Shown: positions 1,482 through 31,285, numbered from the stretch's first letter. The stretch: DNA of 32,000 nt from Opitutales bacterium (GCA_049606355.1 JBMYVL010000002.1:210001-242000), one strand, 5' to 3'. Translations and numbers: made by a program. Notes: generated by a model not told the origin, from the sequence alone.

Positions 1482-1502
1482 AGACGACTGGATTAGTCGT
1501 CT
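1482..1502. terminator. Hairpin between convergent genes; possible weak bidirectional terminator
   Basis: AGACGACT (1482..1489), a GGATT loop, then AGTCGTCT (1495..1502) give a perfect 8-bp stem. It lies 6 nt after the regulator stop (1474..1476) and overlaps the stop codon of the GH10 gene (1493..1495). The plus strand has a modest T-rich tail (AATTCAATTTTG); the minus strand has no T-tract. Confidence 0.3.
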
Positions 1503-4357: not shown

Positions 4358-4369
4358 TTTATTAATAGA

Positions 4370-5764: not shown

Positions 5765-5817
5765 AAATACAGATCGATCAATTAGTATGGCCCTAAGGGC
5801 CCATACATCAAACAAAG

Positions 5818-7986: not shown

Positions 7987-8000
7987 TGGTAATCGATTTG

Positions 8001-8031
8001 AAAAATAAAGGGGCGACACGATCGCCCCTTT
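8001..8031 (-). terminator. Rho-independent-type terminator or attenuator hairpin downstream of the giant repeat-protein gene
   Basis: The minus strand reads AAAGGGGCGA-TCGTG-TCGCCCCTTT followed by ATTTTT. That is a perfect 10-bp GC-cored stem (8007..8016 pairs with 8022..8031), a 5-nt loop and a T-tract (8001..8006). It starts 29 nt after the stop at 8060..8062 and ends 14 nt before the GH52 ATG at 7986. Confidence 0.65.
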
Positions 8032-8059
8032 ATGCTCATGAAATGCTCTACATAGAGCT

Positions 8060-11000
8060 CTACTCGTTAGTTAATTTGAAGAATTTCACTCCATCAATTG
8101 ATTCCGAATGCGGGCTGGTGTTGCCGCTCGCATTCGACCAATTCGTAAGGTCGCTGGAGGACTGAAGGTTAAATCCTTCGCCACCATCCCAAGTTACAGT
8201 CACCGTCGCACCATCCGAAATGATCGTAAGAGCCGGAGCCTCCGTGGGCGTTTGAGGATTAGGATTGTTCGGATCGTTATCGTCAGGATCCGCGTTCGCA
8301 CCGACACCGTCTTCATCTGCATCCACTGACTCATTTGGATCACTCGGGAACGCATCTTCATAGTCAAAGGCGCCGTCGTCATCCGAATCAGCAGGCATCT
8401 GCGGAGTTGGCTCATTGCTTGAATCTGCATCCCGAATGTGAATGGAATCAATCTTGACGAAATCCCCAGCACTGCCACCCGCGATGCTGCTATCACCCCA
8501 GGCGTCATTGGCGTCACGCTTCGTACCAATCTGGATACCGTGAATGGTCGTGAAGCCCGATCCGTACTGAATTAGATTATTCCAGACACCACTCCCCTGT
8601 TTGAAGCGCGAGTAGAAGGCACCGGAGTCAAGATCGACTACAACTTGTAAAGTCGTACCGCTTGTATCCGCCATGCCGCTTAAGGCAACGGTCACCGTAT
8701 CTTCCATTTTGACAACACCGTCAGAACCATACCAAGGCTGAGCTTGGATTTGGGATCCGCCGTTACCGTCAGTATACAGCTGGATCACCGTACCCTGTCT
8801 GGGTTCCGTTGGGGTGTTGTTGGGGCTACCACCGCCAGGGCCGTTCTTGATGATCATGCGAATACCCTTTTGTGCCGCAGAGTCGGAACTCGAATCCCAT
8901 GACTTACTCAAGTCATAAGAATCGAGGACCATCTCATAAACCACCACCCCTGAAGTGATCTCATTATCACTACCTAGATTGTTGGTTCTGAATACAGCAG
9001 CGTTGCCACCATCGACACCTGTCCATTTCCAGTTTTCAGAATAGCCAATATTAAGGTTGCCATTGCTGGTCTGCGGCCCCCCAGAAGTAAACGCAGTTGC
9101 CGGGTAGCCAAGATTCAAGGCCTCGTTTAAGCTGGTCCCACTTTCGTCATCAAAGTCATAGCGTAAGTAGTAGCCCTCGAAGACCCCACCACTATTAGGT
9201 TCATCATCCACATGATCGGGGATCCCATCGTTGTCGCTGTCAGGGTAATCGACTGCGCTGTCGGTGTAAAGGCTGACCAGCCCACCCGTCTCAGTACTAT
9301 CAACGAGACCAAACTGTATGCCTTTGCCGGATGCACTGTTGACGTTGTACGTAGCCGCAGCATCCCAAGCGCGAGACAAGTCGTACTCCTTAATCTCAAT
9401 AACTAAGGAAACCTGCCCGGATGTAATTGCGTTATCCAAGGTAAACTTCCTAAAGACTGACGCTAAGTGCCCATAATTGGCGTTCGTCCATTTATAGTAC
9501 TTTGTATAACCAATGTTCAGTGCACCGTTTTGCATTTGCGGCCCACCATTCGACCAAGCACCGGTAGCGGAGCCGCTGTTCGTTGCGTTTTTAAGGTTCG
9601 TACCCGCAGCATCGTCAAATTCAAAGGCGACTAAGTCCGTACCTGCAACGCTGTCAGTCAATTGAACCGATTCGATCTGAATATAGTCACCGGTCTCCCC
9701 ACCCGCGATCTCAGCAGTACCCCAGGCATCGTCGTCGCCCGTTTTAACCGCTAGGTTGATGGTTTTAACTTCCGTAAGACCGCTGCCGTCCGTGGTGAGG
9801 TTCACCCAGGTGGCGCCGGAATCCGTCGAATAACTGGTTTCAAAGGCGCCCGTGTCTAGATTAGCATCGAGCTTCAATCTGAGATTTTCACCCGACTGCG
9901 CAAAATTTCCGGTACTAACTGGCACTGCGGTCGCGCTCACCCCAGCCCCCGAGCCGTACTTCTGACCAGTAATCACCATGTCGTAATTAGTATCAGGTCC
10001 AGTATCGGCAAGGATACGGATGTGATCAATTTTAACATAGTCGCCCTCAGGAGTGGCTTCATTGACCTCAGTTGTCGAGGCATCGTCAGGTACACCCCAA
10101 GTGGCGAGACCCGTCCCGGCGGTATTGTTAGGCGTCTTCGCATTGATCTGAAGACTCTTGATATCGGTAAAGCCAGTACCGCCCAGTTCCATGTTCTTCC
10201 ATTCAGAACTCGCTGCAGACTTCGCGCGAGTCGACCATTGGCCGGTCGTTGCGTTTACTAGAATCTGCAGGTCGATGTTGCCATTAGCAGGCAAGCCGAA
10301 GGCTTGCTTCAGGGTGGAGCCATTGACTGCCTCGGCACTTACAGAGGAAGCGGAACCTGCCCAAGCATTGCTTTGCGCCTTCACTTGATAGCCACCAGTA
10401 CTGCCGCTAATATGCGAGTAGAGGTTGAGAATTGCACCGGAGCCATCCTCCTTCATTGCCAGGATTTGTACCCCCTTGTTGGCGACCAGATCGGCAGGAT
10501 CATTCCAAGAATTATCTAAAAGAGCAGAGTCAATTCGCGTCTCAATAATGTAACGACCCGAAGTTATCGCCTCATCGAGAGTATACGTGCGGCGTGCATT
10601 ACCATCGTTACTCTCACCATAAAGATCAGTCCATTGGTTGCCGGAGGTGAACCCTATATTTAAGGACCCATCCCCGCTGGTTCTCGGACCGCCAAAGTTC
10701 CACGAACCGGCGACTCCGTAAGCTGCAGTCTCCTGCAGGGCAGTCCCCTCGGCATCATCGAAGTCGAGTTGCAGAATTGCATCCGCTACCGCTTTATTGT
10801 GACTGAACAAATTAAGGGCTGCACCGGCACTATTCGAATTTAGCAGGGTAAACTGGACACCTTTGCCGCTATAACTACCGCTCGAGCCTGCATCCCAAGT
10901 CTTACTCAAATCGTAGTCAGCAACGACTACTTCAAATACGACTAAGTCTGCTCCGCCAGCATCCGTTATCGCACTGTCCAAGAAAAAGCCGCGGTGTGAG

Positions 11001-12415
11001 TTACCAAAATTGTTCACCCATTTGTTGTTTTCCGTATAACCGATGTTGAGATTTCCGCTGCCATCGGTCTTGTGCCCTGAGTAGTTGAAACTGCCGCTCG
11101 CCGACCCTGAATTGACGACCTCAGTCTCACCCTCGCCAGCAACGAGTTGCGCACCACCGACTGTATCATTGAATTCAAAAGCAACCAATGGATTGCTGTA
11201 ATTGACAGTGAAATCATTCACCCCAGAACCCGCACTGCCGGTAACAATTTTAATTGAATCAACTTTGACATAGTCACTTGCAACCCCATCGCTGGCATCC
11301 GAACCCCAGGACTCACCCTCCGGCGTCTTGGTGTTGATTGAAAAACGCTTTACGTCAGTCATGCCAGTACCATCGCTGACCAACGCGACCCAATTGCCTG
11401 CGCCGACTTTGTAGCGCGAGGACCAATTGCCCGTACTCAAGTCTGCAGCCACCTGCAGGGTGACGGCATCACTGCCAAGCTGATCGGTGTCACCACTGAG
11501 GCTTTCGACAAGAGTGCCGCTCACGGCCGGATCCGCATTGCCACCCCAATTGTTGCCCTGCACAGCAATGTCAGTTAAGACAGCGGGGGCAACAACTTCC
11601 GGAGCAGTTAAGCTAATAGCACCCACACGCACGAAATCTCCAGCGACACCGCCAGATAAAGTCGAATCACCCCATGGGTCATTGGGACGGTGGTTAATTT
11701 TCAATTGGATTTCAGAAATCTCATCCAGCCCAGAACCATCTTGAGTTAACAAAATCCAAGACACTGCATCGGCTTCCTTGAAACGTGCCGTCCAGACGCC
11801 CGTATCCAGATTAGCGTTAATTTGCAAAACGAGTGCAGCATCCGTATCAAAATTAAAATACTCTGCGGTAGTTGGGTCCGCTGCACCATAGGTCGTTGCA
11901 ATCGTAGCATCCGGTGCACCGGCACCCCAATCATTACTCTGCACCTTGGAAACAATATCACCGATCAAAAAGTGGCTGAATAGATTGATCGTAGCACCAA
12001 TTCCATCGGAGCCCTTGATAATAAAATTAACACCCTTGTCGCTGTCGGTTGAAGAAGCCGAGCTATCCCAAGCTCGAGTTAGATCATACGAGTCAATCTC
12101 GACCTCAAAGGTATACTCTCCCGAGGTCAGCGGCGTATCCAGAACATACGAACGATAGACTTCGCTTAAATCATGCGAGTTGGTAAATTTATAATACGGG
12201 GTATAGCCAATGTTCAAGACTCCCGCCTGTACTTGCGGACCACCATAATTCCAGGCTCCGCTTGCAGTGCCATCATTAACCGCAACGTTGAGGTTGGTGC
12301 CATTGGCATCATCGAAAGCAAAATTCACGCCTGCGTGAACGGCGAGAACCTGTAACATTAAGAATAAGGGTATAAGGGTATTTTTCATTCTACTAAGTTG
12401 GGTGACGAGAGTCAT
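8060..12415 (-). CDS. Giant secreted repeat protein of unknown function: five A modules plus five B modules, TSP3-like acidic repeats and a C-terminal domain. Candidate surface glycan-binding protein.
   Basis: 1451 aa, with an alternative ATG at 12388 giving the canonical signal peptide MKNTLIPLFLMLQVLAVHA. It contains no catalytic motif that I recognise. Internal repeats are obvious in the translation (listed in the repeat feature). The acidic DxDxDG stretches are DSDNDGIPDHVDDEP and DSDDDGAFDYEDAFPSDPNESVDADEDGVGANADPDDNDPNNPN. The C-terminus is TVTWDGGEGFNLQSSSDLTNW...KFFKLTNE. Confidence 0.85.
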   Translation of the reverse strand: MTLVTQLSRMKNTLIPLFLMLQVLAVHAGVNFAFDDANGTNLNVAVNDGTASGAWNYGGPQVQAGVLNIGYTPYYKFTNSHDLSEVYRSYVLDTPLTSGEYTFEVEIDSYDLTRAWDSSASSTDSDKGVNFIIKGSDGIGATINLFSHFLIGDIVSKVQSNDWGAGAPDATIATTYGAADPTTAEYFNFDTDAALVLQINANLDTGVWTARFKEADAVSWILLTQDGSGLDEISEIQLKINHRPNDPWGDSTLSGGVAGDFVRVGAISLTAPEVVAPAVLTDIAVQGNNWGGNADPAVSGTLVESLSGDTDQLGSDAVTLQVAADLSTGNWSSRYKVGAGNWVALVSDGTGMTDVKRFSINTKTPEGESWGSDASDGVASDYVKVDSIKIVTGSAGSGVNDFTVNYSNPLVAFEFNDTVGGAQLVAGEGETEVVNSGSASGSFNYSGHKTDGSGNLNIGYTENNKWVNNFGNSHRGFFLDSAITDAGGADLVVFEVVVADYDLSKTWDAGSSGSYSGKGVQFTLLNSNSAGAALNLFSHNKAVADAILQLDFDDAEGTALQETAAYGVAGSWNFGGPRTSGDGSLNIGFTSGNQWTDLYGESNDGNARRTYTLDEAITSGRYIIETRIDSALLDNSWNDPADLVANKGVQILAMKEDGSGAILNLYSHISGSTGGYQVKAQSNAWAGSASSVSAEAVNGSTLKQAFGLPANGNIDLQILVNATTGQWSTRAKSAASSEWKNMELGGTGFTDIKSLQINAKTPNNTAGTGLATWGVPDDASTTEVNEATPEGDYVKIDHIRILADTGPDTNYDMVITGQKYGSGAGVSATAVPVSTGNFAQSGENLRLKLDANLDTGAFETSYSTDSGATWVNLTTDGSGLTEVKTINLAVKTGDDDAWGTAEIAGGETGDYIQIESVQLTDSVAGTDLVAFEFDDAAGTNLKNATNSGSATGAWSNGGPQMQNGALNIGYTKYYKWTNANYGHLASVFRKFTLDNAITSGQVSLVIEIKEYDLSRAWDAAATYNVNSASGKGIQFGLVDSTETGGLVSLYTDSAVDYPDSDNDGIPDHVDDEPNSGGVFEGYYLRYDFDDESGTSLNEALNLGYPATAFTSGGPQTSNGNLNIGYSENWKWTGVDGGNAAVFRTNNLGSDNEITSGVVVYEMVLDSYDLSKSWDSSSDSAAQKGIRMIIKNGPGGGSPNNTPTEPRQGTVIQLYTDGNGGSQIQAQPWYGSDGVVKMEDTVTVALSGMADTSGTTLQVVVDLDSGAFYSRFKQGSGVWNNLIQYGSGFTTIHGIQIGTKRDANDAWGDSSIAGGSAGDFVKIDSIHIRDADSSNEPTPQMPADSDDDGAFDYEDAFPSDPNESVDADEDGVGANADPDDNDPNNPNPQTPTEAPALTIISDGATVTVTWDGGEGFNLQSSSDLTNWSNASGNTSPHSESIDGVKFFKLTNE
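8435..12328 (-). repeat. Protein-level module array inside the giant gene, in the order A1-B1-B2-A2-A3-B3-B4-A4-A5-B5
   Basis: The A modules are about 120-130 aa. Their consensus is (L)xFxFDDxxGTxL...G.W..GGP....G.LNIGYT...KW......(I)TSG.....(E)I..YDLS+.WD.....KG(V/I)Q... They lie at 11972..12328, 10802..11191, 10412..10777, 9263..9634 and 8771..9169. The B modules are about 105-125 aa. Their consensus is (V)Q.N.WG....L(Q/K)(I/V)...L.TG.W..R(F/Y)K.....W..L...G(S/T)G(L/F)T(D/E)(I/V)K.(I/F).(I/L)N.K......WG......G...GD(Y/F)(V/I)+(I/V)(D/E)S(I/V).(I/L). They lie at 11609..11950, 11246..11569, 10013..10390, 9659..9979 and 8435..8755. Boundaries are approximate and were set by eye. The copies are diverged at DNA level. 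Confidence 0.7.
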
Positions 12416-12531
12416 TTAAGGGTAACGATAAGGCCGAAACCTTAAGTACTTCCATCATAGCCAGAATCGTCAGGCTTAACAATTCATGTATTTAATAAAA
12501 TAATACCAATATTTGAAACTTAGATGCGCAT

Positions 12532-14037
12532 CTAAAACTGAGTCGCTCCACTAATCGAATGAGGGTCGATTTTGAAAGCCGCCAACCGGCCGACTTTGTC
12601 ACCTGGTATACTGTAGTTAAACTGCGGTGCATTTTCATCTAGTTCATGTCGCCAGACCTTAAAAAATGGAGGCGTCGACGTTTCCGTAAGAAAATCATTC
12701 TGACGCCCCATCCATGCAAAGAGCTCACGCTTCAGCCGCTCCTTGATCCCACGCTTGTCGGGATCTTTGGCCAGATTGACCAGCTCAAAGGGATCCACCG
12801 CGACATCATACAACTCTTCTTCGGGCTGATTTGGGTGTTTATCGGCTCCCTGCTTTAAAAAAAAGTAGACCAAAGCATCCTCTACCCGAAGCTTCGCCAA
12901 ATGTTCGTTTGAATTAAAGTTATAAATATAGTGATAACGACCATCATGAATGGAACGCTGCGGAAAAACATGGCGATTCTGAATCCCCTGATTGTGGCTT
13001 ACCGCATAAGCATATTGGTGGTGCTGCTTCGCGCGGCCTTCAAGTACCGGCAACAAGCTTTTGCCATCAAAGGCGTGGTCACCCACTCGGTAACTGGAGC
13101 TGGCCAAATCGATTGCCGTGGGCACGAAGTCCGCAAAGGTAATGATTGCATCGCTACGGCCTGGTATAATTTTGTCCGGCCAGCGCACCATATAAGCCAC
13201 ATTGAGCCCGGAATCATACACTGTAAACTTGCCACGTGCGACCCCATGGTCGTCGGCGTAAAAAACGATCGTATCGTTTTCTAAGCCGTGTTTTTCGAGG
13301 AGGCGCAAGACGGCCTCAAACTCATTTTCTTTTTCGGCAATACTTTGATAATAGCGGCTGACATAAGCGCGGGTTCCCGGAGAGTCCTGCTGGAAGGGCG
13401 CAAGAGCCACTGAATCTGGCTCGAAACTCGAATCCTTAAAGTAAGGGCCGTGCGGGTACTCACTGGCGAGGATCAAACAAAAGGGGTTTTCGCGACTGCC
13501 TAAATAGCGATCCAGCGCAGCAATGGGTAACCCGGGGCGCGGGTAGCCTGGCTTCCGAACCGGTTGGTACCAGTTCGTCCAAGGAAATTGATGGTTTGGC
13601 TTGAGATGGGATTTACCGGCTAGAATGACATCGTAGCCCAACGGTTTCAGGTACGCAGGCAGCGTCTTCACGCTAGGGCGTATCGCGGTATGATTGATAA
13701 AGCAGCCATTTCGAATCGGGTATAAGCCCGTCAACAGCATCGAGCGACTCGGCGCGCAGATTGCCTGCCCCGTGTAGGCTTTATTAAAAACGAGCGCTTG
13801 CCTGCTGAACGCTTCCGTAATCGGTGTTGGCGCCTTTAGGTTGCCGTAAATACGATGATCCGAGCGGCTTTGGTCATCTGCTAAAAAAAAGATGATGTTC
13901 GGACGACTGCCTTGTAAGCCAGTAAACTTTTCTTCCGAATGAACGGCGCATATGAAAGCAGTCTGCGCAGCAAGGAAGAGCAAGAGTACCCATGTATTTC
14001 GCAGACTCATGAACCCGGCAGTCCATTGCTCACTCAT
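12532..14037 (-). CDS. Secreted Cys-type (formylglycine) sulfatase
   Basis: 501 aa. It has PNIIFFLADDQ (metal-binding DD) and the sulfatase signature ICAPSRSMLLTGLYP, with the FGly Cys codon at 13756..13758. The ATG at 14037 overlaps the upstream stop (ATGAGTGA). The alternative ATG at 14010 gives a cleaner signal peptide (MSLRNTWVLLLFLAAQTAFICAVHS). Confidence 0.9.
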   Translation of the reverse strand: MSEQWTAGFMSLRNTWVLLLFLAAQTAFICAVHSEEKFTGLQGSRPNIIFFLADDQSRSDHRIYGNLKAPTPITEAFSRQALVFNKAYTGQAICAPSRSMLLTGLYPIRNGCFINHTAIRPSVKTLPAYLKPLGYDVILAGKSHLKPNHQFPWTNWYQPVRKPGYPRPGLPIAALDRYLGSRENPFCLILASEYPHGPYFKDSSFEPDSVALAPFQQDSPGTRAYVSRYYQSIAEKENEFEAVLRLLEKHGLENDTIVFYADDHGVARGKFTVYDSGLNVAYMVRWPDKIIPGRSDAIITFADFVPTAIDLASSSYRVGDHAFDGKSLLPVLEGRAKQHHQYAYAVSHNQGIQNRHVFPQRSIHDGRYHYIYNFNSNEHLAKLRVEDALVYFFLKQGADKHPNQPEEELYDVAVDPFELVNLAKDPDKRGIKERLKRELFAWMGRQNDFLTETSTPPFFKVWRHELDENAPQFNYSIPGDKVGRLAAFKIDPHSISGATQF

Positions 14038-16822
14038 CGATTTGTACCTTATAAAATTTGTTCGGTATTCCCTGATGAGTCTCAGTCCAATAATTCAAGC
14101 CGCCAAAGGTACCCGGTAAGGCCTCGACTTCGACCTGCCAATCACTTTGCGCCAGGTCCGTCTTACTGAGCACACGGTAGTGCACGGAATCACTACCAAA
14201 CCAGCTGATTTCATTGCTCGTCTCTCCTGCAGAGAGACTATTAAATGCGAATCGTGAATTGGCGTTGGTGGGTATCGTACCCGAGCGGTATTCAAGCCGA
14301 TTGGAAAGACCATCCATATCGCTATCCACATCCGGACTCGTTTGATTACTTCCAAAGTAAGCGACTTCCCAACTATCGGGAATCCCATCTTGATCGGTAT
14401 CGGACGGATTGACACCGGGCGTTTCTGCCACGAGCGAAAAGTCGTCCACGTAGATATCTACTCCCGCAGGAACACCTCCAATGTAGATCGACTCATCGCC
14501 CTCTGTGGCTACAAAGGTACCTGACAACTCCACCCAATCATTGATATAAGTGGCTTGGGCAACCGTGCTATAAGTCGTGCCCGATGCGGTATTCTTACGA
14601 GTCAATTTGGCCAGTACGTTGCTTTGACTGAGCCGGAGGCGACAAGCGATTTGGTAACTGTTGCCGAGCGTTAAATCATCCAGCAAATACCGAATTCCGC
14701 TGTAGTTTTGCGTGCGATTGCTAATCAATAAGGATTGGGAGCCAGCGTAGGCATAACTATTCGTGATCGAACGATCCGCCGGCCCCATGTAGTTAAAAGG
14801 CGCCAATTGCGATTCATTACTAATCGATCCAATGGTTGAGTTCTCAAAACCAGGGTTTGTAATTAAATTGGTACCTGTTCCGCTTGCGCCGACCGTAAAC
14901 GCAAGCGCTGCATTTAAGGCAGCTCCATCGTTCTGCTCGCCGACAGCGGATAAGGTGTAGTCGCCCTCAGGTCGGTCATATAGCTTTGCGGTATAGGGAG
15001 CTACCGCGTCCGTTTTAATTAAAACGTTATCCACATAAAACGAAATACGACTCAAGTCCGCACTCGCATTACCTTGCGCTTCAACTTCGATCGGTTCGTT
15101 TGGATAAAACGCTTCCCCACTGGTTGGCTTTAGGAAGCTAATCGCCGGGGTATCGGGCGGAGGTTCTTCCAGACCCACAGCAATCCGGTAGTAGCTCTGC
15201 ATCGTGGCCAATGTATCGGCATAAGCGGATGCACCGACCACATTCGACCACTCGTTCGGGTCGGTGCTGTGGTCGTACAATTCTTCTTCTCCATCACGGT
15301 AAAGGATGTAACGGAATTGTTCGCTGCGGATACTGAAGTGCTGATCCGTGTAGGGAGCGACTTGGTTTTGGGATACTGAAGCCGATGAACCAATACCTGC
15401 AACCGAGTAGCTCGGCCCATCCCATTGCCCGTTCTGCGGGTCGGCCAAATACGCACGCATCGAATAGCCATCTAAAGTATGCGGTGCGTTCAGCCCCGCG
15501 TAATCGATACAAGTAGGATAGATATCAACTAAAGAAACCGGCTTGTTGCACTCTTGGTTCGCCGCAACCCCAGGGCCGGCAATAACTAAGGGTACTCGGA
15601 CACTTTCCTCCCAAGGACTTTGTTTAAAGATATAAGACTTTTCTCCCAAATGGTAGCCGTGGTCACTGGTGAAGATAAGGATCGTGTTGTCGCGAATAGT
15701 GGGATCGTTACTATTATCAATCGCATCCATCACCTTACCCACCTGAGCATCTACAAAAGCGACGCAAGCCAAGTACGCTTGGGTGAATTCTTTTAAAGCA
15801 CGCTCGGCATCGCCATACTCCGCTATACCCATATTTTTGTATTGAGTATACTTCCACCAACCCGAATTCTGTGCCAGGTCTTTATCGGTACTGTTAACCG
15901 GCCCGGTAATATCATTGTAGTCACTGGCATTAATTGGCGCTAATTGAATCTCATTCAATGCCGGCACGAGATCAAAAAACTCTTTCGGCGCATAATAGGG
16001 TGAGTGCGGACGAACAAATCCTACCGTTAATAAAAAGGGCTTATTCTTATCGTAACCGTTGATGAAATTGACCGCTTGCTGTGCGCTGATTTCATCTGAA
16101 GTCAAATCCCGCGTGTCATCCGAAAAATCATTCGGTGTGCCGTTATCATCATAGTTCCAAGTGGTATAGGATGCATTGTTCGACCCGCCCGACTGCAACG
16201 TCCATTGATGCCCATAACTACTCAAATCCCGATAGTAGCCAAAGCCGCTATAAGGGGGCGTCACGTTATCCTTATAACCATCTCCCCACCAGGAAGGGTC
16301 GACGCCCTGAAATTGAGGGGTGCTGGTATTTGGATACGGACCAAAATTACCCTTAGTACCATAGCCCGAAGAGCCATCGGTATTACGCATAATCGTTGAG
16401 TAGGAACTCTCATGGCCATTGTGATGGATCTTACCCGTGGCATAACTATAGTAGCCCTGATCAATGAAGGTTTCAAAAAGTGTTTTTTTGTTTCGTAATA
16501 CTACATTGTTGTCCCAGCGATTGGTTTGCTGATCTTGACCATACATGCCCGAAGTAACCGGATGGATGCCGCTCCATAAACTCGCACGAGAAGGTCCACA
16601 AATTGGCGCGTTGGAGGCCGCATTGGTAAAACGAACCCCTGACTCCATCAATCGAGTAATATTTGGCGTGTAAGCCTGAGGGTGGCCGCCGATGCCTTCG
16701 ATGGTATCGTTGAGATCATCACAAACGATCACCACAATATTCGGCGACTGCGCCTGCAACGACGAGAAACCGAACAAAGTAGAGACCACAGCGAGCAAAT
16801 AGAGAATGGGGTAATTCTTCAT
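14030..16822 (-). CDS. Secreted Cys-type sulfatase fused to Ig-like domain, CBM4/9-like domain, TSP3-like repeats and C-terminal domain
   Basis: 930 aa. The signal peptide is MKNYPILYLLAVVSTLFGFSSLQA. Sulfatase motifs are VVIVCDDLND, ICGPSRASLWSGIHP (Cys75, 16598..16600) and IFTSDHGYHLGEK. The tail (aa ~560-930, nt 14033..15145) is colinear with the tail of the GH10 at 1493..4357: FYPNEPIEVEA..., NLITNPGFENS, DTDQDGIPDSWEVAYFGS, DSDMDGLSN, ISWFGSDSVHYRVLSKTDL..DW...KFYKVQIDE. Confidence 0.9.
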   Translation of the reverse strand: MKNYPILYLLAVVSTLFGFSSLQAQSPNIVVIVCDDLNDTIEGIGGHPQAYTPNITRLMESGVRFTNAASNAPICGPSRASLWSGIHPVTSGMYGQDQQTNRWDNNVVLRNKKTLFETFIDQGYYSYATGKIHHNGHESSYSTIMRNTDGSSGYGTKGNFGPYPNTSTPQFQGVDPSWWGDGYKDNVTPPYSGFGYYRDLSSYGHQWTLQSGGSNNASYTTWNYDDNGTPNDFSDDTRDLTSDEISAQQAVNFINGYDKNKPFLLTVGFVRPHSPYYAPKEFFDLVPALNEIQLAPINASDYNDITGPVNSTDKDLAQNSGWWKYTQYKNMGIAEYGDAERALKEFTQAYLACVAFVDAQVGKVMDAIDNSNDPTIRDNTILIFTSDHGYHLGEKSYIFKQSPWEESVRVPLVIAGPGVAANQECNKPVSLVDIYPTCIDYAGLNAPHTLDGYSMRAYLADPQNGQWDGPSYSVAGIGSSASVSQNQVAPYTDQHFSIRSEQFRYILYRDGEEELYDHSTDPNEWSNVVGASAYADTLATMQSYYRIAVGLEEPPPDTPAISFLKPTSGEAFYPNEPIEVEAQGNASADLSRISFYVDNVLIKTDAVAPYTAKLYDRPEGDYTLSAVGEQNDGAALNAALAFTVGASGTGTNLITNPGFENSTIGSISNESQLAPFNYMGPADRSITNSYAYAGSQSLLISNRTQNYSGIRYLLDDLTLGNSYQIACRLRLSQSNVLAKLTRKNTASGTTYSTVAQATYINDWVELSGTFVATEGDESIYIGGVPAGVDIYVDDFSLVAETPGVNPSDTDQDGIPDSWEVAYFGSNQTSPDVDSDMDGLSNRLEYRSGTIPTNANSRFAFNSLSAGETSNEISWFGSDSVHYRVLSKTDLAQSDWQVEVEALPGTFGGLNYWTETHQGIPNKFYKVQIDE

Positions 16823-16840
16823 ACTATTTTTGATTTTAGT

Positions 16841-18421
16841 TTAATTAACAACTTTTCCAAGGGCAGAATCCATTTTTTGACGCAGGCGAAGTAGTACCGA
16901 AGTATACTTTTTAGAACGACTTAAATTAACCCATTCGTTTGGATCCTGCATATGATCATAAAGCTCCTCTTCACCATTGCGACAGCGGATATAACGATAG
17001 CGCTCGGTGCGCAGACTGAAATGTTGCTCCTCAATCGGAGCGGGTTGATGCAACTGCGAAGGCAAACGTGACCCACAGGCCGACAAGGAATAATCAGGGC
17101 CGGACCAAAGCCCATCCTTTGGTCTTTCCAACAAGGGCCGCAACGAGTAGCCATCGAGAGGATGCGAGGGCTTGAGTTGCGCATAATCCAAGCAAGTCGG
17201 GAAAACATCGACCAAAGAAACCGGCGTCTTTGATTGCTCTCCTCGAGCGACTCCGGGCCCGGCAACCACTAAAGGAATACGCACACTCTCTTCCCACGGT
17301 GTGAGTTTAAAGATGTAATCCTTCTCTCCCATGTGGTAGCCGTGATCGCTCGTAAAGATAATCAAGGTATTGTCAGCATCGCCACGCGCTTCGACCGCAT
17401 CGAGGATCTTACCGACTTGTGCGTCCACAAAAGCGACGCAAGCGAGGTAAGCTTGGGTCCAACGCTTAAGCTTGGCCTCTCCACCATGATTCATAATCTT
17501 TGAATACTTCGACCAGCCCCAGGGTTGGGCTAAATCCTGCTTCTCCGCCAAGATCTTCGCACAATCCGCTAGGTCGTCCTCCATCCGTGGGGTTAGTTCG
17601 ACGCTTTCCAGTGGAAAGAGATCAAAAAACTCCTGTGGCGCGTACCAAGGCGAATGGGGACGTGAAAAACCAACTGTAAGCAGGAAGGGTTTTTCATGCT
17701 CTCTTTCCAAAAAAGCAACTGCTTCATCCGCATGCACTTCATCCGGCATCAAGTCACGGTTATGACCATCGCGGTATTCCCAAATCGCCCCATTGTAAAA
17801 CAGGGTCCATTGATACTGGTCTCCGTACTGTGAGAGATCTTGGATCGGGCCGAAACCGTCACCCCATCCCCCAATACGCTCTCCCTCACTCCACCACGGC
17901 GGCAAAATACCATGGCGCTTATTTGCAGGCTTACCATCATTTGGAAGCGGGCCAAAATTCGAATACGATCCCCATCCCGAGCTGCCATCTTGATTCTGAA
18001 AAATCTCCAAACGCTGATGCCCGTTGTGGTGAATTTTACCGGTAGCAAAATTATGGTAGCCCTGAGCGGTAAAAACTTCAAATAACGTCTTCTTATCCTG
18101 CAACACTACATTCTGATACCAGCGCTCTTTGTGTTGATTCCCACCATACAATCCAGTGGAAATCGGATGCAGCCCACTCCACAAGCTCGCTCTCGAAGGT
18201 CCACAGATCGGCGCATTGGAGGCCGCATTGGTAAAGCGTACACCCCGCTCAATCAGGCGATTGATATGTGGTGTTTGTGCCTGCGGATGCCCACCCATAC
18301 CTTCAATCGAATCATTTAAATCATCACAGATGATAATGATTACGTTCGGACGATCGTCCGCCTGTGCGAACTGCCAACTGGCAATGGTTATAAGAAGTAA
18401 TGAAAGTAATTTATGTAACAT
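16841..18421 (-). CDS. Secreted Cys-type sulfatase; tandem paralogue of the catalytic domain of 14030..16822
   Basis: 526 aa. The signal peptide is MLHKLLSLLLITIASWQFAQA. Motifs are IIIICDDLNDSIEGMGGHPQAQTP, ICGPSRASLWSGLHP and IFTSDHGYHMGEK. It aligns along its whole length with aa 1-550 of the neighbouring 930-aa sulfatase. Confidence 0.92.
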   Translation of the reverse strand: MLHKLLSLLLITIASWQFAQADDRPNVIIIICDDLNDSIEGMGGHPQAQTPHINRLIERGVRFTNAASNAPICGPSRASLWSGLHPISTGLYGGNQHKERWYQNVVLQDKKTLFEVFTAQGYHNFATGKIHHNGHQRLEIFQNQDGSSGWGSYSNFGPLPNDGKPANKRHGILPPWWSEGERIGGWGDGFGPIQDLSQYGDQYQWTLFYNGAIWEYRDGHNRDLMPDEVHADEAVAFLEREHEKPFLLTVGFSRPHSPWYAPQEFFDLFPLESVELTPRMEDDLADCAKILAEKQDLAQPWGWSKYSKIMNHGGEAKLKRWTQAYLACVAFVDAQVGKILDAVEARGDADNTLIIFTSDHGYHMGEKDYIFKLTPWEESVRIPLVVAGPGVARGEQSKTPVSLVDVFPTCLDYAQLKPSHPLDGYSLRPLLERPKDGLWSGPDYSLSACGSRLPSQLHQPAPIEEQHFSLRTERYRYIRCRNGEEELYDHMQDPNEWVNLSRSKKYTSVLLRLRQKMDSALGKVVN

Positions 18422-18432
18422 AACGAGAGGCT

Positions 18433-19587
18433 TTATTGAATTAATTGGCTAATCGCAAAATAGGCGGGCTTCGGTTTATAAGCGCGATCGAACAAAGCAG
18501 GATAAACGGTTCGCCCTTCAACCGGCCAATTCCTGAGCCATGAGTAATGGTCGACCACGCCCCAAAAGCTGACGCGCTCGATGACATCGCTGTACTCTAA
18601 GAATACTTCAAATAGATCTGAATACTTTTTCGCTTGTTGATTGAGAACACCCGGTGGAACTCCCTTTGTGTATGGATCCAATTCTTCCATGCGCTTCACA
18701 TTCAAACGGATGTCCGCACCACTTTCGGTATCTTTAGGATGAGGCAACACGCGTACGTCCAATTCTGAAATACTAATTGCGACGTTCGCCTCAGACAAAA
18801 CACGCAGCGCTGTCCGTAATTCTTTTTGGGTCGGCCACTCGAGGTGCCAATGCCCTTGCATGCCCACGCCATGAATCGGCACCCCATCAGCCTTTAAGTC
18901 TCGCACTAGGTTCGCAACAAATTGCGTCTTCACCAAGTCAGTCATGCTGTAATCATTATACAGCAGTCGTGCATCGGGGTCGGCCTCGTGGGCGAACTGG
19001 TATGCCAGCTTGATGTAATCGTCACCGATAATTTGAAACCATGGGGACTCTCGCAAAAATGCAACTTGCTCACCGTCGACAACCTTAAGGTCAACCGCTT
19101 CATTAACGACATCCCAATACTTGATGCGTCCTTTGTAGCGCTTCACTACGGTATGGATGTGGGTGCGCATACGTTCGATCAAAACCTCGCGACTGACACG
19201 GCGCCCCTCCTCGTCCACAAAAATCCAACTCGGCACCTGATGGTGCCAGACCAAGGCATGCCCGACGACTTCCATTTGCGCTGCTTCCGCTAAAGCCATC
19301 AGTGCATCGGCCGAAGCAAACTCAAATTCACCTTCGCGTGGCTGAAGGTACTGCATCTTCATACTGTTCTCTGCAGTCAAACAATTGAATTCACCTACCA
19401 GTAAAGCCAACTCACGCTTATCATTTCGAAACAACGAATCGCCATCGATACCGCCTGCCAATACGTTACCAATCAGAAATCGCTCCGCGTAGCGTTCTTT
19501 TAATGGAAGATGTGTTCCACCACCTGCACAGGCCACACCGTGCACAAGAATGAATAAAAATAGGGATAAGTGGATTCCTTTTTGCAT
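18433..19587 (-). CDS. Secreted GH10 endo-1,4-beta-xylanase, catalytic domain only, canonical motifs
   Basis: 384 aa with an N-terminal signal peptide. The GH10 motifs are canonical: FNCLTAENSMKM, GHALVWHHQVPSW, YWDVVNEAV (acid/base), HGVGMQGHWH, ISISELDV (nucleophile) and VSFWGVVD. Confidence 0.92.
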   Translation of the reverse strand: MQKGIHLSLFLFILVHGVACAGGGTHLPLKERYAERFLIGNVLAGGIDGDSLFRNDKRELALLVGEFNCLTAENSMKMQYLQPREGEFEFASADALMALAEAAQMEVVGHALVWHHQVPSWIFVDEEGRRVSREVLIERMRTHIHTVVKRYKGRIKYWDVVNEAVDLKVVDGEQVAFLRESPWFQIIGDDYIKLAYQFAHEADPDARLLYNDYSMTDLVKTQFVANLVRDLKADGVPIHGVGMQGHWHLEWPTQKELRTALRVLSEANVAISISELDVRVLPHPKDTESGADIRLNVKRMEELDPYTKGVPPGVLNQQAKKYSDLFEVFLEYSDVIERVSFWGVVDHYSWLRNWPVEGRTVYPALFDRAYKPKPAYFAISQLIQ

Positions 19588-19597
19588 AACAAGATCG

Positions 19598-21070
19598 TTA
19601 TAGTTTGGGCGTCCCCAAGCGTTCGTGCTTTTTTAAAAAATGCTGATAAGGCATCGTCGCATAACGCTCGACCTCCGCTCGAACCGCGGGGTCATTGAGA
19701 TCGGGGAACGGATTTCGTTCCAATGCTTTAAATAGTGCTTCTCTCGCCAATTGGACTTCCTGTGACGAAAAATCGGTCACTAAGGTGTAATCCTTTTTGT
19801 GCATCGATCCATTGCATCGATAGAGTCGTCCCTCACGACTGCCGTAAACTGGATCGACCGCCTCTAGCAGCCAATCTTTGGTTCGAACCATGCGCGCGGT
19901 TGCAATATAACTAAGGATGGAATCACGATAGGTATCCACTCGGCCCTGCAAGAAAGCCTTCATACTCACTCCATCGATCGCATAGTCATCTGGAAGATGA
20001 ATCCCCGCAAAGTCGAGCAAGGTAGGAAACACATCGACAAATTCCATCAACGCATTGGTCGCGCCTCTTTCCGCAACCATTCCAGGGCAATTGACGACAA
20101 ACGGCACACGCGGACCCTCCTCGGTAGCGTGCATCTTACTTGCTCCCGAAGTGCCATTATCCGAAGCAAAGATAATAAGGGTATTGTCGCGAAGGCCCAG
20201 GCGCTGCAACGCGTCAATCAAACGTCCAATCATTGCATCTACATACAGATTCAAAGCTTCTAAATTACCTCCCGTATTGCGACCCGGAATGCCGTCAGCG
20301 GGAACTGTAGGCAAGCCGCCACCGGCAATATCGTGGACTAAATTCATCGGGAAATAAGCGAGGAATGGCTGCTCCCGATGACGCTCCATAAAATCTATCA
20401 GAAAGTCTGTATATAGCTCGGGGGCAAAGTCCTCCGCGTCCGTCTCAACCAGTACCCCATTGTGAGTGATGGCTGGATGCCAGAAACGAGATGGTACTGG
20501 CTTTGATCCGGGGAATGCCCACTTCCCCTCAAATAAACCATCAAAGCTCCCATCCGCGGGTAATTTCTCATGCGCATTGATGTGCAGAAAATACTCATCA
20601 AAGCCAACATACTTTGAGTCTGGCTGGTGGTGGCCTAGGGCCATTTGCTTCCCAGAGATCGCAGTCCGATACCCATGCTCTCTTAAAACACGGGCGAACG
20701 TCAAATGCCCAAGCGCGTAATCCCAGCGACCATAATCCCCCTGTGGGATCCTCAAATCATTATGCCAAACTCCGGTTCGACTCGGATAACGCCCGGTGGT
20801 TAACAACGCGCGCGTGGGTGAGCACATCGGCGTCGCCCAAGCCATGTTAAAAAAAACACCCCCCTCAGCCAAGGTATCCACATGCGGGGTCGCATAGGCA
20901 GAATTGCCATAGCAACTGAAAGCTTCAGGGCTGATATCATCCACCATGATGATGAGAAAATTCGGCGGCCTTTCCATTTCAGCAGCAGCGACACGCACCC
21001 CCGAACAAAGATTCGCAGCAGTGCAACAGTACACCAGCCATAAAAGTAAGCCTGCTTTGTTTGTCTTCAT
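19598..21070 (-). CDS. Secreted Cys-type sulfatase (arylsulfatase-A-like)
   Basis: 490 aa with a signal peptide. Motifs are NFLIIMVDDISPE, MCSPTRALLTTGRYPSRTG (CxPxR) and IIFASDNG. There is a 1-bp spacer to the upstream gene and 10 bp to the downstream gene. Confidence 0.9.
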   Translation of the reverse strand: MKTNKAGLLLWLVYCCTAANLCSGVRVAAAEMERPPNFLIIMVDDISPEAFSCYGNSAYATPHVDTLAEGGVFFNMAWATPMCSPTRALLTTGRYPSRTGVWHNDLRIPQGDYGRWDYALGHLTFARVLREHGYRTAISGKQMALGHHQPDSKYVGFDEYFLHINAHEKLPADGSFDGLFEGKWAFPGSKPVPSRFWHPAITHNGVLVETDAEDFAPELYTDFLIDFMERHREQPFLAYFPMNLVHDIAGGGLPTVPADGIPGRNTGGNLEALNLYVDAMIGRLIDALQRLGLRDNTLIIFASDNGTSGASKMHATEEGPRVPFVVNCPGMVAERGATNALMEFVDVFPTLLDFAGIHLPDDYAIDGVSMKAFLQGRVDTYRDSILSYIATARMVRTKDWLLEAVDPVYGSREGRLYRCNGSMHKKDYTLVTDFSSQEVQLAREALFKALERNPFPDLNDPAVRAEVERYATMPYQHFLKKHERLGTPKL

Positions 21071-21071
21071 T

Positions 21072-22535
21072 TTAAAGGCGAGTTAAGACTACATCGATTT
21101 CAGGAGCTGTGCCTGCATCGGCAACAAAATGACCCAGATACTCATGCCCGTTCAAATTTACGCGCAGTCGGTAGTCCCCGTAAAAACCATTAAACGACAG
21201 CGTATTTTCCTGCGTCAGCTGTCCGTCAACTTCAGTAGTCCACTCATGATTGATCAGTTGATCCAGGACGGCATAGACCGGCTTGGGTGTGCCGTCGGCA
21301 TCTAATAGGCCGGCAGGCATCCCTCGCCAGGGATTTAAATCCGTGATCGACCACCACGTGATTGATGCGACCTGCGGATGACTGAACGCCAGGGTATAAA
21401 AGTCGCGTGTTAATGCCGCCTGATAAGCTTCCAACTGTGGCGTGCTGGTCAAGGTAGGGATCGCTGCGCCCTGATCCAGCGCTTGCTGCCAAGCCTTCTC
21501 CTGCACATCAAGGCCCTTCCAGTCTTCAAATCGCCCGCAGCTCAAAATACTCACTTCGGATAAATAAATGGGTTTCTGATACTGCGTATAAACTTCGAGC
21601 ATGTCCCACAGCGCAGCCTCGGAAAAGCTTTGGCTTACGGAATGCATGTGCGTCTGAATACCAATCGCGCCAACATCTGCACCGACCTGCAAGCAATGCT
21701 GGATTTGGCGGTGATAAAAAGGGTCGTCGTGCTGGTAATGGTTGAGAATATAAAAGCCTTCTGGGCGCGAGGCACGAGCGATCTCTAGAATTGCCTCGGT
21801 CACATAACCCGGCCCGGAGGTAAATCGGCCATCCGCCATTTCGTGCCCCATAAACGTCTGCCAGCGGCGCATCCCCGAAGACTCGTCTTTCCAGACAATA
21901 CCGGGAACTTCATTGTACAGGTCCCACTCGTCCACCTCAGGGTACTGCTCGATCAGAAATTTAACATGCCGACGTATATCTCGATCGATCGCTCGCACAT
22001 CGCGCTCTGCATCGTCAATCCATTCCGGAACCACCTGGTGCCAGACTAACGGGTGCCCCTTCAGGACCATGCCCTGCGCTTTGGCCCACTTTAATAATTC
22101 ACTGGATAAAGGTGCCGAATCATAATCCCACTTCCCGCGAATTTTTTCATGGCTCCCCCAATAGAAATTGATCGTGGCGTAGTTAAATAAGCGCGCAAAC
22201 AGCTGTTTAAAACGCGCGTACCAGGGCTGCGCCGGCACGCTCCAATCCGCTGCCAAAGAGCCACCAAACAAAAACGCATGTTTCGTTTGCTCTATCTGGT
22301 ATGTGGCACCTGCAGGGATGCTACGTCCACTGCTCTCTTTGATCGTTAACTTAAAATCTCCCTTGCGGTACTTTTCGATACGCTCTTTCGCTCCTTGTAG
22401 TTCCCATGGCACATGCGCCTCAACCACCAGGGGGTGAGCACCGATCTGGCTACTCGTCGAATTTGCCGCGCAGCCGAGCAAGCAAGCAAACTGCAACAAA
22501 CCAATGATTGCGTATACCTTGCCCATGGCGTGCAT
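21072..22535 (-). CDS. GH10-like (clan GH-A) glycoside hydrolase, predicted lipoprotein, with a divergent substrate-binding segment and a C-terminal beta-sandwich
   Basis: 487 aa. It has a lipobox, LLGC (Cys22). GH10-like landmarks appear in order: HAFLFGGS, FNYATINFYWGSHE, GHPLVWHQVVPEW, EWDLYNEV (acid/base), GAIGIQTHMH, IYLSEVSI (nucleophile position) and ITWWSITD. A second ATG lies at 22526. Confidence 0.8.
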   Translation of the reverse strand: MHAMGKVYAIIGLLQFACLLGCAANSTSSQIGAHPLVVEAHVPWELQGAKERIEKYRKGDFKLTIKESSGRSIPAGATYQIEQTKHAFLFGGSLAADWSVPAQPWYARFKQLFARLFNYATINFYWGSHEKIRGKWDYDSAPLSSELLKWAKAQGMVLKGHPLVWHQVVPEWIDDAERDVRAIDRDIRRHVKFLIEQYPEVDEWDLYNEVPGIVWKDESSGMRRWQTFMGHEMADGRFTSGPGYVTEAILEIARASRPEGFYILNHYQHDDPFYHRQIQHCLQVGADVGAIGIQTHMHSVSQSFSEAALWDMLEVYTQYQKPIYLSEVSILSCGRFEDWKGLDVQEKAWQQALDQGAAIPTLTSTPQLEAYQAALTRDFYTLAFSHPQVASITWWSITDLNPWRGMPAGLLDADGTPKPVYAVLDQLINHEWTTEVDGQLTQENTLSFNGFYGDYRLRVNLNGHEYLGHFVADAGTAPEIDVVLTRL

Positions 22536-22541
22536 TAAAAA

Positions 22542-25298: not shown

Positions 25299-25376
25299 GG
25301 TGTAAAGTGCCAGACGATGCCATAGGCATATGCGCGCTTGCTTGCAGCGCAAGTCTGAGCCCGCTTTTAGGACTGC

Positions 25377-31272: not shown

Positions 31273-31285
31273 AGACTTTTCATCG

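What the first reader, a model, noticed from the sequence alone, without database searches (positions are those of the whole stretch)
14033..15145. The same ~370-aa C-terminal cassette is grafted onto a sulfatase and a GH10 xylanase
The tail of the 930-aa sulfatase (aa ~560-930) and the tail of the 954-aa GH10 (aa ~578-954, nt 1496..2626) are colinear module for module. The Ig-like domains are FYPNEPIEVEA...YVDNVLIKTDAVAPYTAKLY versus FYPNETIELEA...YADGQLLKRDSVAPFRTKLY. The CBM4/9-like domains are NLITNPGFENS...YVDDFSLV versus NLIANADFELG...YVDDVSLA. Both then carry two TSP3-like DxDxDG repeats with a WE..YFGS motif and a terminal domain of about 70 aa. Two enzymes with unrelated chemistry, sulfate-ester hydrolysis and glycosidic-bond hydrolysis, therefore carry the same targeting and binding apparatus. 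That is direct sequence evidence that they are delivered to the same substrate or the same cell-surface location, and it is a clear case of domain shuffling within one locus. The adjacent paralogous sulfatase (16841..18421) lacks the cassette, so the fusion can be polarised.
Basis: seen in the sequence. Interest (0 to 1): 0.75.

Follow-up and report, generated by a model that had tools for sequence, protein, structure and literature searches.

The report
Shared xylan-binding tail on two enzymes
A sulfatase and a xylanase in one marine Verrucomicrobiota gene cluster carry the same four-part tail, which most likely binds xylan and holds both enzymes at the cell surface; this is an ordinary kind of domain sharing with some unusual details.

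Summary
The last 371 aa of the 930-aa sulfatase and the last 378 aa of the 954-aa GH10 align end to end (40% identity, E 1e-78). Every module is significant on its own.

The tail consists of:
- a Big_7 Ig domain;
- a CBM22-like xylan-binding module;
- two calcium-loop (TSP3) repeats;
- a 75-aa FN3-like beta-sandwich that has no Pfam or NCBIfam model.

It is not a recent graft, because the two copies share almost no DNA similarity. GH10 plus tail is an old architecture found across Verrucomicrobiota and Kiritimatiellota. The tail-bearing sulfatase is one old orthologue group confined to this conserved GH10/sulfatase/GH52 locus, and is sister to the tail-less paralogue next door.

Module trees suggest that the 3' modules were re-exchanged between the two genes several times in other lineages.

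The TSP3 plus sandwich unit ends within 5 residues of the C-terminus in 107 of 110 hits, on many unrelated secreted proteins.

Best reading: both enzymes attack polymeric sulfated xylan outside the cell, held there by a shared binding module and a shared C-terminal tag. Binding and localisation are inferred, not shown.

The parts
14030..16822 (-). Gene for the 930-aa S1 sulfatase with the C-terminal cassette (S930). It has a Sec signal peptide and the formylglycine motif CGPSR at aa 75-79.
   Evidence: [quoted passage not shown]
15197..16744 (-). Sulfatase catalytic region of S930 (Pfam Sulfatase aa 27-443 plus SGSH_C aa 393-542)
14885..15145 (-). Cassette module 1 in S930: Big_7 Ig-like domain (aa 560-646)
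   Evidence: fold close to the CbhA X1/Fn3-like module 3pdg, TM 0.84
14432..14884 (-). Cassette module 2 in S930: CBM22-like (Pfam CBM_4_9) module (aa 647-797)
14264..14431 (-). Cassette module 3 in S930: two TSP3/EF-hand-like calcium loops, DTDQDGIPDSWE and DSDMDGLSNRLE, each followed by a short helix (aa 798-853)
14033..14263 (-). Cassette module 4 in S930: terminal six-strand FN3-like beta-sandwich ending ...KFYKVQIDE-stop (aa 854-930)
1493..4357 (-). Gene for the 954-aa GH10 xylanase with the same cassette (G954). It has a Sec signal peptide and the catalytic motifs WDFNNE and ITELD.
2933..3799 (-). GH10 catalytic domain of G954 (aa 187-475)
2366..2629 (-). Cassette module 1 in G954: Big_7 Ig-like domain (aa 577-664)
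1895..2365 (-). Cassette module 2 in G954: CBM22-like module (aa 665-821)
1727..1894 (-). Cassette module 3 in G954: two TSP3/EF-hand-like calcium loops (aa 822-877)
1496..1726 (-). Cassette module 4 in G954: terminal beta-sandwich ending ...QFYKIELDD-stop (aa 878-954)
16841..18421 (-). Tail-less paralogous sulfatase (S526), 55% identical to the S930 catalytic part and belonging to its sister orthologue group
1493..24281 (-). Eleven tightly packed minus-strand genes (gaps -8 to 116 nt): 5 S1 sulfatases, 3 GH10, GH52, an MFS_2 transporter and a 1451-aa unknown exported protein. This is the putative sulfated-xylan locus that holds both cassette genes.
   Evidence: syntenic loci L003, L010, L012, L013, L014, L017, L019

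Best explanation
The cassette is a four-module extracellular 'working end': Big_7 Ig spacer, CBM22-like xylan-binding module, two calcium-loop (TSP3) repeats, and a terminal FN3-like beta-sandwich.

It belongs natively to a PVC-wide family of GH10 xylanases. It was copied onto one sulfatase paralogue of a conserved sulfated-xylan utilisation locus of marine Puniceicoccales/Coraliomargaritaceae-like Verrucomicrobiota.

Proposed mechanism:
- Both proteins are exported by Sec.
- The CBM holds them on the xylan backbone.
- The TSP3 plus sandwich unit is a generic obligate C-terminal module of secreted PVC proteins. It keeps them at, or takes them to, the cell surface.
- There an endo-acting xylose-sulfate sulfatase and an endo-xylanase attack the same polymer side by side.
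- The tail-less sulfatases and GH10s finish the oligosaccharides in the periplasm, the MFS carrier imports them, and the signal-less GH52 beta-xylosidase works in the cytoplasm.

Shown: the homology of every module, the module identities, the distribution, the strictly C-terminal position of the last unit, and the old and mosaic history.

Inferred: xylan binding, surface location, endo-sulfatase specificity, and the division of labour between compartments.
For: - Homology: E 1e-78, and every module is significant on its own.
- Locus content: 5 sulfatases with intact C-x-[PA]-x-R motifs, 3 GH10, GH52, MFS_2, XylR-like regulators (periplasmic-binding domain plus AraC HTH), UxaC. All enzymes except GH52 start with a signal peptide.
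- CBM: for both proteins the best PDB sequence hits are the xylan-binding CBM22 modules of C. thermocellum Xyn10B (1dyo/1h6y) and P. barcinonensis Xyn10C, profile E about 1e-12, fold TM about 0.64. The three cleft aromatic positions are kept (W53 as W or Y, Y103 as Y, Y136 as Y).
- Terminal unit, fold and position: AlphaFold pLDDT 93.7 and pTM 0.82, one compact unit of two loop-helix motifs plus a six-strand sandwich. Of 110 hits with a home-made HMM, 107 end 0-5 residues from the protein C-terminus.
- Terminal unit, carriers: GH10, sulfatase, pectate-lyase-like, BNR_4, Laminin_G_3 and LVIVD proteins, and giant Big_7 proteins.
- Positional analogy: distant GH10 homologues carry a type IX CTD (Por_Secre_tail) at the same terminal position, and a Planctomycetota homologue carries a PEP-CTERM-like tail.
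- Precedent: the A. muciniphila surface sulfatase Amuc0953 has an SPI signal, a CBM, an Ig domain and a CTD-like terminal domain, and is cell-bound (PMC13524802).
- The terminal unit is the best conserved part of the cassette (53-58% against 36-40%).
Against: - No binding, activity or localisation data exist for any member.
- Arg25 and Glu138 of the CBM22 cleft, the residues altered in entries 1h6x and 1h6y, are not conserved. The ligand may therefore differ from plain xylan.
- The terminal sandwich matches only generic FN3 folds in the PDB (E about 0.01). No type IX CTD appears in the top 50.
- No Por_Secre_tail, dockerin or other sorting-domain model hits the module.
- No candidate translocon or anchor partner is visible in the window.
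- Homology to the Amuc0953 CTD was not tested.
- The sample used for the positional statistic was collected with the cassette itself as query.
Confidence: 0.6

Rival explanations
1. The enzymes are soluble and secreted. The cassette is only a binding-and-stability unit. The CBM targets the polymer, while the calcium loops and terminal sandwich are a rigid calcium-stabilised cap or spacer with no sorting or anchoring role. Its terminal position simply reflects how such modules get appended.
For: The terminal domain has only generic FN3-like structural neighbours, and FN3/X1 modules are common passive spacers in CAZymes. No sorting-domain model matches. No partner machinery is present in the window.
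Against: A passive spacer would not be expected to end within 5 residues of the C-terminus in 107 of 110 hits on very different proteins. Nor would it be expected to be the best conserved and most often homogenised part of the cassette. Homologous GH10s of other phyla carry true sorting signals at that position.
Confidence: 0.25
2. Dockerin-like assembly. The two calcium loop-helix motifs plus the sandwich dock both enzymes onto a surface scaffold, for example the conserved 1451-aa repeat protein of the same locus. The result would be a small multi-enzyme complex on sulfated xylan.
For: There are two EF-hand-like 12-residue loops (DxDxDGxxDxxE), each followed by a helix, about 25 residues apart, as in dockerins. 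A large signal-peptide-bearing repeat protein without any Pfam domain is conserved between the two cassette genes in the syntenic loci that span that position. Concerted evolution of the terminal unit within lineages would suit co-evolution with one partner.
Against: Pfam Dockerin_1 does not hit the module. No cohesin-like domain is recognised anywhere in the window. The module occurs on many proteins in genomes and loci that lack this scaffold candidate.
Confidence: 0.1
3. The resemblance is an artefact or a very recent event in this genome, such as an assembly chimera or a fresh duplication or gene conversion inside the window.
For: Metagenome assemblies can join repeated segments. One short public scaffold (L018) may be such a chimera.
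Against: The two copies in the window are 40% identical in protein and share only 55 nt of detectable DNA similarity. Both architectures recur in independent samples and in syntenic loci.
Confidence: 0.01

Closest known systems
Modular GH10 xylanases with CBM22 modules (C. thermocellum Xyn10B/XynY, P. barcinonensis Xyn10C)
   Same: A GH10 catalytic domain combined with a CBM22-type beta-sandwich module. These CBMs are the best PDB sequence and fold matches of the cassette CBM.
   Different: Here the CBM lies C-terminal to the catalytic domain, behind a Big_7 domain. It is followed by TSP3 loops and a terminal sandwich rather than a dockerin. The same unit also sits on a sulfatase. Cleft residues Arg25 and Glu138 are replaced.
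[quoted passage not shown]
   Same: Closest solved relative of the S930 catalytic part (E 2.5e-39). It is an endo-acting sulfatase on xylose-2-sulfate within a polymer (PMC9096561).
   Different: The relationship is distant. P18_S1_7 is a single-domain enzyme from a Bacteroidota ulvan locus. S930 carries a 371-aa tail and sits among GH10, GH52 and xylose-type genes.
Predicted sulfated-xylan PULs of marine Flavobacteriia (PMC6794258)
   Same: The same enzyme logic: GH10 plus several sulfatases, with CBM22 present. One pattern even has a sulfatase domain fused to a GH10.
   Different: Those loci are SusC/D-based and belong to Bacteroidota. Coupling there is by direct GH10-sulfatase fusion. Here the two enzymes stay separate but share one binding and terminal cassette, in a Verrucomicrobiota locus with an MFS importer.
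Amuc0953, cell-surface S1_20 sulfatase of Akkermansia muciniphila (PMC13524802)
   Same: A Verrucomicrobiota sulfatase with an SPI signal, a CBM, an Ig-like domain and a small terminal beta-sandwich. The authors liken that sandwich to a type IX CTD, and the enzyme is cell-bound.
   Different: Its CBM is an N-terminal beta-helix that binds mucin. Homology of its terminal domain to the one here was not tested, and no TSP3 repeats are reported.
Type IX secretion C-terminal domains (Por_Secre_tail) on Bacteroidota CAZymes
   Same: A beta-sandwich of about 75 aa at the extreme C-terminus, shared by many unrelated secreted enzymes. It occupies the same position on distant GH10 homologues.
   Different: There is no sequence match to PF18962 and no type IX CTD among the top 50 fold matches. 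The host phyla are not known to have a type IX system. The module here always comes with two calcium loops.

Membership tests
GH10 glycoside hydrolase (G954) | Match to the family profile above the curated cut-off | tested here: met
   PF00331, 161.9 bits against a cut-off of 22.1, aa 187-475; GH10 structures are the best PDB hits
GH10 glycoside hydrolase (G954) | Two catalytic glutamates in the WDxxNE and TELD motifs | tested here: met
   WDFNNE and ITELD are read directly in the translation. The roles of the motifs come from established GH10 knowledge.
S1 formylglycine-dependent sulfatase (S930) | Profile match and the C-x-P-x-R formylglycine motif | tested here: met
   PF00884, 162.4 bits against a cut-off of 25; CGPSR at aa 75-79
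S1 formylglycine-dependent sulfatase (S930) | Sulfatase activity and SulfAtlas subfamily | not testable with these tools
   Only the nearest solved relative is known (6HHM, S1_7).
CBM22 / Pfam CBM_4_9 (cassette module 2) | Profile match above cut-off in both proteins, with CBM22 as nearest relatives | tested here: met
   PF02018, 51.9 and 37.5 bits against a cut-off of 25.9; best PDB hits are 1dyo/1h6y/4xup; fold TM about 0.64
CBM22 / Pfam CBM_4_9 (cassette module 2) | Conserved ligand-cleft residues of CBM22-2 (R25, W53, Y103, Y136, E138) | tested here: inconclusive
   The aromatic positions are kept (W or Y, Y, Y). R25 becomes M or is not aligned. E138 becomes G (S930) or S (G954).
CBM22 / Pfam CBM_4_9 (cassette module 2) | Binding to xylan | not testable with these tools
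   Needs an experiment.
Big_7 bacterial Ig domain (cassette module 1) | Profile match above cut-off | tested here: met
   PF17957, 38.0 and 42.6 bits against a cut-off of 24.1
Bacterial TSP3 repeat (cassette module 3) | Profile match above cut-off and DxDxDG calcium loops | tested here: met
   PF18884, 29.8 bits against a cut-off of 25, on the S930 fragment; 29 of 33 family members match; two DxDxDG loops in each protein
Type IX secretion CTD (Por_Secre_tail) | Match to PF18962 or a closest fold match to a type IX CTD | tested here: not met
   No Pfam hit at E up to 10 on the isolated domain. The top 50 Foldseek PDB hits are FN3-type domains.
Type I dockerin | Match to PF00404 | tested here: not met
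   No Dockerin_1 hit on either protein or on 33 family members.
PEP-CTERM sorting signal | Terminal PEP motif, a hydrophobic helix and a basic tail | tested here: not met
   The proteins end in ...KFYKVQIDE and ...QFYKIELDD, with no hydrophobic stretch.

The most novel reading that the evidence does not exclude
The TSP3-loop plus beta-sandwich unit is the cargo tag of an undescribed outer-membrane export or surface-attachment pathway of Verrucomicrobiota and Kiritimatiellota. It would be a functional counterpart of the type IX CTD. The repeated homogenisation of this unit between the sulfatase and GH10 genes would then keep both enzymes matched to the same lineage-specific receptor.
Probability: 0.25. 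Interest if true: 0.8.

Novelty: new variant of a known kind. Interest (0 to 1): 0.5.

Why it matters
- A xylan-type CBM on an S1 sulfatase is a strong substrate clue for an uncharacterised marine sulfatase. It points to an endo-acting enzyme on sulfated xylan, a glycan so far only predicted from PULs.
- The locus gives a Verrucomicrobiota counterpart to the Bacteroidota sulfated-xylan PULs. It uses a different way of coupling desulfation and backbone cleavage.
- The terminal unit is widespread, strictly C-terminal and unmodelled in Pfam and NCBIfam. It is a concrete handle on how PVC bacteria place enzymes on their surface, which is still an open question.

Tried and rejected
- **Searches that undersampled or were swamped.** The first word-indexed search with the S930 tail found only 6 proteins and undersampled the family. 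The exhaustive profile search was swamped by giant multi-Big_7 proteins, so only single-stretch hits were informative.
- **The 1451-aa protein.** Its C-terminus looked like a third copy of the terminal domain by eye. The HMM support is marginal (10.4 bits, E 0.03 for 752 ORFs), so it is not counted.
- **P0176 / L018.** This is a sulfatase tail without a CBM, whose last 404 nt are 99.75% identical to a GH10 gene from another sample. It may be a scaffold chimera, because a NAD-binding fragment is fused at its start and the scaffold is only 1.5 kb. It is not used as evidence.
- **NCBIfam.** The matches to Amuc_1099, MtsD and CglD cover only the TSP3 loops.
- **Literature.** Searches for a described TSP3-type sorting domain in Verrucomicrobia found nothing relevant.
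- **A recent duplication in the window** is rejected on the DNA comparison.


Full report
**1. Observation**

The window carries a 930-aa ORF (14030-16822, minus strand) and a 954-aa ORF (1493-4357, minus strand).
- BLASTP aligns aa 560-930 of the first with aa 577-954 of the second in one colinear block: 153/387 identities, E 1e-78. Nothing else in the two proteins aligns.
- Each module scored alone, against 300 shuffles, is significant: Ig 40% (z 25), CBM 39% (z 22), TSP3 pair 55% (z 27), terminal domain 53% (z 44).
- Pfam gives Sulfatase/SGSH_C + Big_7 + CBM_4_9 for one protein and Glyco_hydro_10 + Big_7 + CBM_4_9 for the other.
- The window holds exactly two copies. They share only a 55-nt stretch of detectable DNA similarity.

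The finding's coordinates and module list are correct.

**2. Surroundings**

Eleven genes from 24281 down to 1493 lie on the minus strand with gaps of -8 to 116 nt. In order they are: sulfatase, GH10, sulfatase, GH10, sulfatase S526, sulfatase+cassette S930, sulfatase, a 1451-aa exported protein without any Pfam domain, GH52, an MFS_2 transporter, and GH10+cassette G954.
- All five sulfatases keep the C-x-[PA]-x-R motif.
- Every enzyme except GH52 starts with a signal peptide.
- The flanks hold two regulators with a periplasmic-binding-type domain plus an AraC HTH, a SASA-type esterase, UxaC and a mannitol-dehydrogenase-family enzyme.
- From established knowledge, GH10 enzymes are endo-xylanases and GH52 enzymes are beta-xylosidases. 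The locus therefore reads as a sulfated (glucurono)xylan utilisation locus.
- The same gene order recurs in a Coraliomargaritaceae MAG (L003) and in metagenome contigs L001, L002, L010-L014, L017 and L019. The source is therefore a marine Puniceicoccales-type member of Verrucomicrobiota.

**3. Distribution and polarity**

An exhaustive profile search of 1.84 billion representatives found the full cassette, as a single colinear stretch, only on sulfatases and GH10s among complete proteins.

*GH10 side.* A search with the GH10 part alone returned about 40 clusters (at 90% identity) of 886-985-aa GH10+Big_7+CBM_4_9 proteins.
- Their catalytic identity runs from 96% down to 35%.
- Nearly all end in the same terminal motif with two DxDxDG loops.
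- One comes from a Pontiellaceae isolate, which is Kiritimatiellota.
- Cassette divergence follows catalytic divergence: 72% down to about 30% against 81% down to 35%. On GH10 the cassette is therefore old and vertically inherited.

*Sulfatase side.* An NJ tree of the catalytic domains resolves five orthologue groups.
- The cassette-bearing sulfatases of four lineages (window, L003, L011, L012) form one group. Support is 100% for three of them and 67% when L012 is included.
- This group is sister to the tail-less S526 group, which is present next door in the other three lineages as well.
- The duplication and the fusion therefore predate these lineages. With a CBM of the GH10-typical CBM22 kind, the likely direction of transfer is GH10 to sulfatase.

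**4. Mosaic history**

In a 36-sequence cassette tree the sulfatase cassettes are not monophyletic. Per-module identities:

| Pair | Ig | CBM | TSP3 | terminal |
|---|---|---|---|---|
| Sulfatase S950 (L011) vs GH10 P0257 | 42 | 71 | 66 | 67 |
| S950 vs its orthologue S930 | 45 | 44 | 46 | 53 |
| Sulfatase fragment P0002 vs GH10 P0260 | 36 | 32 | 82 | 83 |
| Window pair S930 vs G954 | 36 | 37 | 48 | 58 |

At DNA level:
- S950 and P0257 are 69.8% identical over 867 nt, starting exactly at the CBM.
- P0002 and P0260 are 74.7% identical over the last 395 nt.
- Orthologous cassettes of different lineages show little or no DNA similarity.

Module trees:
- An all-sulfatase clade gets 0% bootstrap support for the CBM and for TSP3+terminal, and 19% for the Ig domain.
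- For TSP3+terminal, P0002 pairs with GH10 P0260 (100%), S930 pairs with the G954 clade (76%), and S950 falls among the G948-950 GH10s (about 50%).

The 3' modules have therefore been exchanged again between the two genes in several lineages, by gene conversion or repeated swapping. In the window any such event is old.

Caveat: apart from the window pair, the compared genes come from different samples, so 'same genome' is inferred from relatedness. The deep nodes are weakly supported.

**5. What the modules are**

- *Ig module.* Pfam Big_7. The fold is closest to the CbhA X1/Fn3-like modules (3pdg, TM 0.84).
- *CBM.* The profile and both single sequences hit the xylan-binding CBM22 modules of C. 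thermocellum Xyn10B and P. barcinonensis Xyn10C best, with fold TM about 0.64.
  - The cleft aromatic positions are kept.
  - Arg25 and Glu138, the residues changed in entries 1h6x and 1h6y, are not kept.
  - Loss of the acidic Glu would suit an anionic ligand, but that is speculation.
- *Last 129 aa.* With a 33-sequence alignment they fold at pLDDT 93.7 and pTM 0.82 into one unit: two calcium-loop/helix motifs plus a six-strand sandwich.
  - The loops match TSP3_bac.
  - The sandwich has no Pfam or NCBIfam model.
  - It has only weak FN3-type neighbours in the PDB.

**6. The terminal unit as a generic C-terminal module**

107 of the 110 hits end 0-5 residues before the stop codon.
- Carriers include GH10s, sulfatases, a pectate-lyase-like protein, BNR_4, Laminin_G_3 and LVIVD proteins, and giant multi-Big_7 proteins, in several Verrucomicrobiota lineages.
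- Distant GH10 homologues carry Por_Secre_tail (the type IX CTD) at that position. A Planctomycetota homologue ends in a PEP-CTERM-like tail.
- The A. muciniphila surface sulfatase Amuc0953 combines an SPI signal, a CBM, an Ig domain and a CTD-like terminal sandwich, and it is cell-bound (PMC13524802).

Together this makes a sorting or surface-retention role the most likely one. It remains an inference from position and analogy.

**7. Mechanism proposed**

- Sec export is followed by placement at or beyond the outer membrane through the terminal unit.
- The CBM docks on the xylan backbone.
- The sulfatase removes sulfate esters within the polymer while the GH10 cuts the backbone.
- The tail-less paralogues process oligosaccharides in the periplasm, MFS_2 imports them, and the signal-less GH52 releases xylose in the cytoplasm.

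Rivals:
- a purely structural tail on soluble enzymes (0.25);
- a dockerin-like docking unit for a scaffold such as the 1451-aa protein (0.1);
- an artefact or recent event (0.01, refuted).

**8. Comparison and novelty**

- Sharing one CBM and one anchoring module among different catalytic domains is a familiar theme in CAZyme biology.
- GH10 plus sulfatases plus CBM22 has been predicted for sulfated-xylan PULs of Flavobacteriia, where a sulfatase domain is even fused to a GH10 (PMC6794258).

What is less ordinary here:
- a xylan-type CBM on an S1 sulfatase;
- an unmodelled, strictly C-terminal PVC-wide module;
- module-wise re-homogenisation of the tail between two non-homologous enzymes.

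I rate it a new variant of a known kind, interest 0.5.

**9. Limits**

- There are no experimental data on binding, activity or localisation.
- Trees are NJ on short modules.
- Several public sequences are fragments or come from error-prone long-read assemblies.
- The JGI metagenome scan failed, and two fold libraries were unavailable.

Noticed in passing
window 8060-12415 (-): A 1451-aa exported protein with no Pfam or NCBIfam hit. It contains five copies of an NLNIG[YF][TS] motif and repeated DYDLS[KR]xWD motifs. It ends in Asp-rich loops plus a small ...W..G..LQSSSDL..W...FFKL domain that looks like the cassette's terminal domain, but the HMM support is marginal (E 0.03). Counterparts of 1528-1705 aa occupy the same position in syntenic loci. 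It is a candidate glycan-binding or scaffold protein.
   Followed up: partly
L018 (ENA ERZ23487451 scaffold_50128) vs L019: A 1.5-kb scaffold encodes a sulfatase tail with the Ig domain but no CBM. Its last 404 nt are 99.75% identical to the 3' end of a GH10+cassette gene from another sample. It is either a real recombinant or an assembly chimera; a NAD-binding fragment is fused at its start.
   Followed up: partly
window 24282-25376 and 24001-32000: The operon ends at a 1.1-kb gap holding two small divergent DoxX_2 membrane-protein ORFs (24595-24960 +, 24957-25352 -). GC is 0.44-0.52 across most of the locus and 0.53-0.55 from about 24 kb on, so the sulfated-xylan operon may be compositionally distinct from its flank.
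   Followed up: partly
window 241-1476 (+) and 27124-28230 (-): Two regulators combine a periplasmic-binding-protein-like sensor domain with an AraC-type HTH, the architecture of XylR-type xylose regulators. One lies 16 nt from the stop codon of the GH10+cassette gene, on the opposite strand (convergent). This arrangement is conserved in L010, L013, L014 and L017.
   Followed up: no
window 18433-19587 (-) and 21072-22535 (-): The two tail-less GH10s have signal peptides with a Cys shortly after the hydrophobic core (VHGVAC-AGGG; LLGC-AANS). They are possible lipoproteins, which would be a different way of membrane attachment within the same locus.
   Followed up: no
window 22542-24281 (-): The first sulfatase of the operon (579 aa) carries a different C-terminal extra, a sub-threshold He_PIG Ig-like domain (aa 498-576; 21.5 bits against a cut-off of 24).
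   Followed up: no
L009 118-3552 (P0225): A divergent 1144-aa GH10+cassette protein has an additional N-terminal region with its own TSP3 repeats. It sits outside any visible sulfatase locus, next to ArsP_2 and thiamine-biosynthesis genes.
   Followed up: no
L013 17910-22847: In one syntenic contig a protein of more than 1646 aa with a TonB-dependent-receptor Plug domain lies about 5 kb beyond the GH10+cassette gene. It is a possible outer-membrane importer for this system, and is absent from the window.
   Followed up: no
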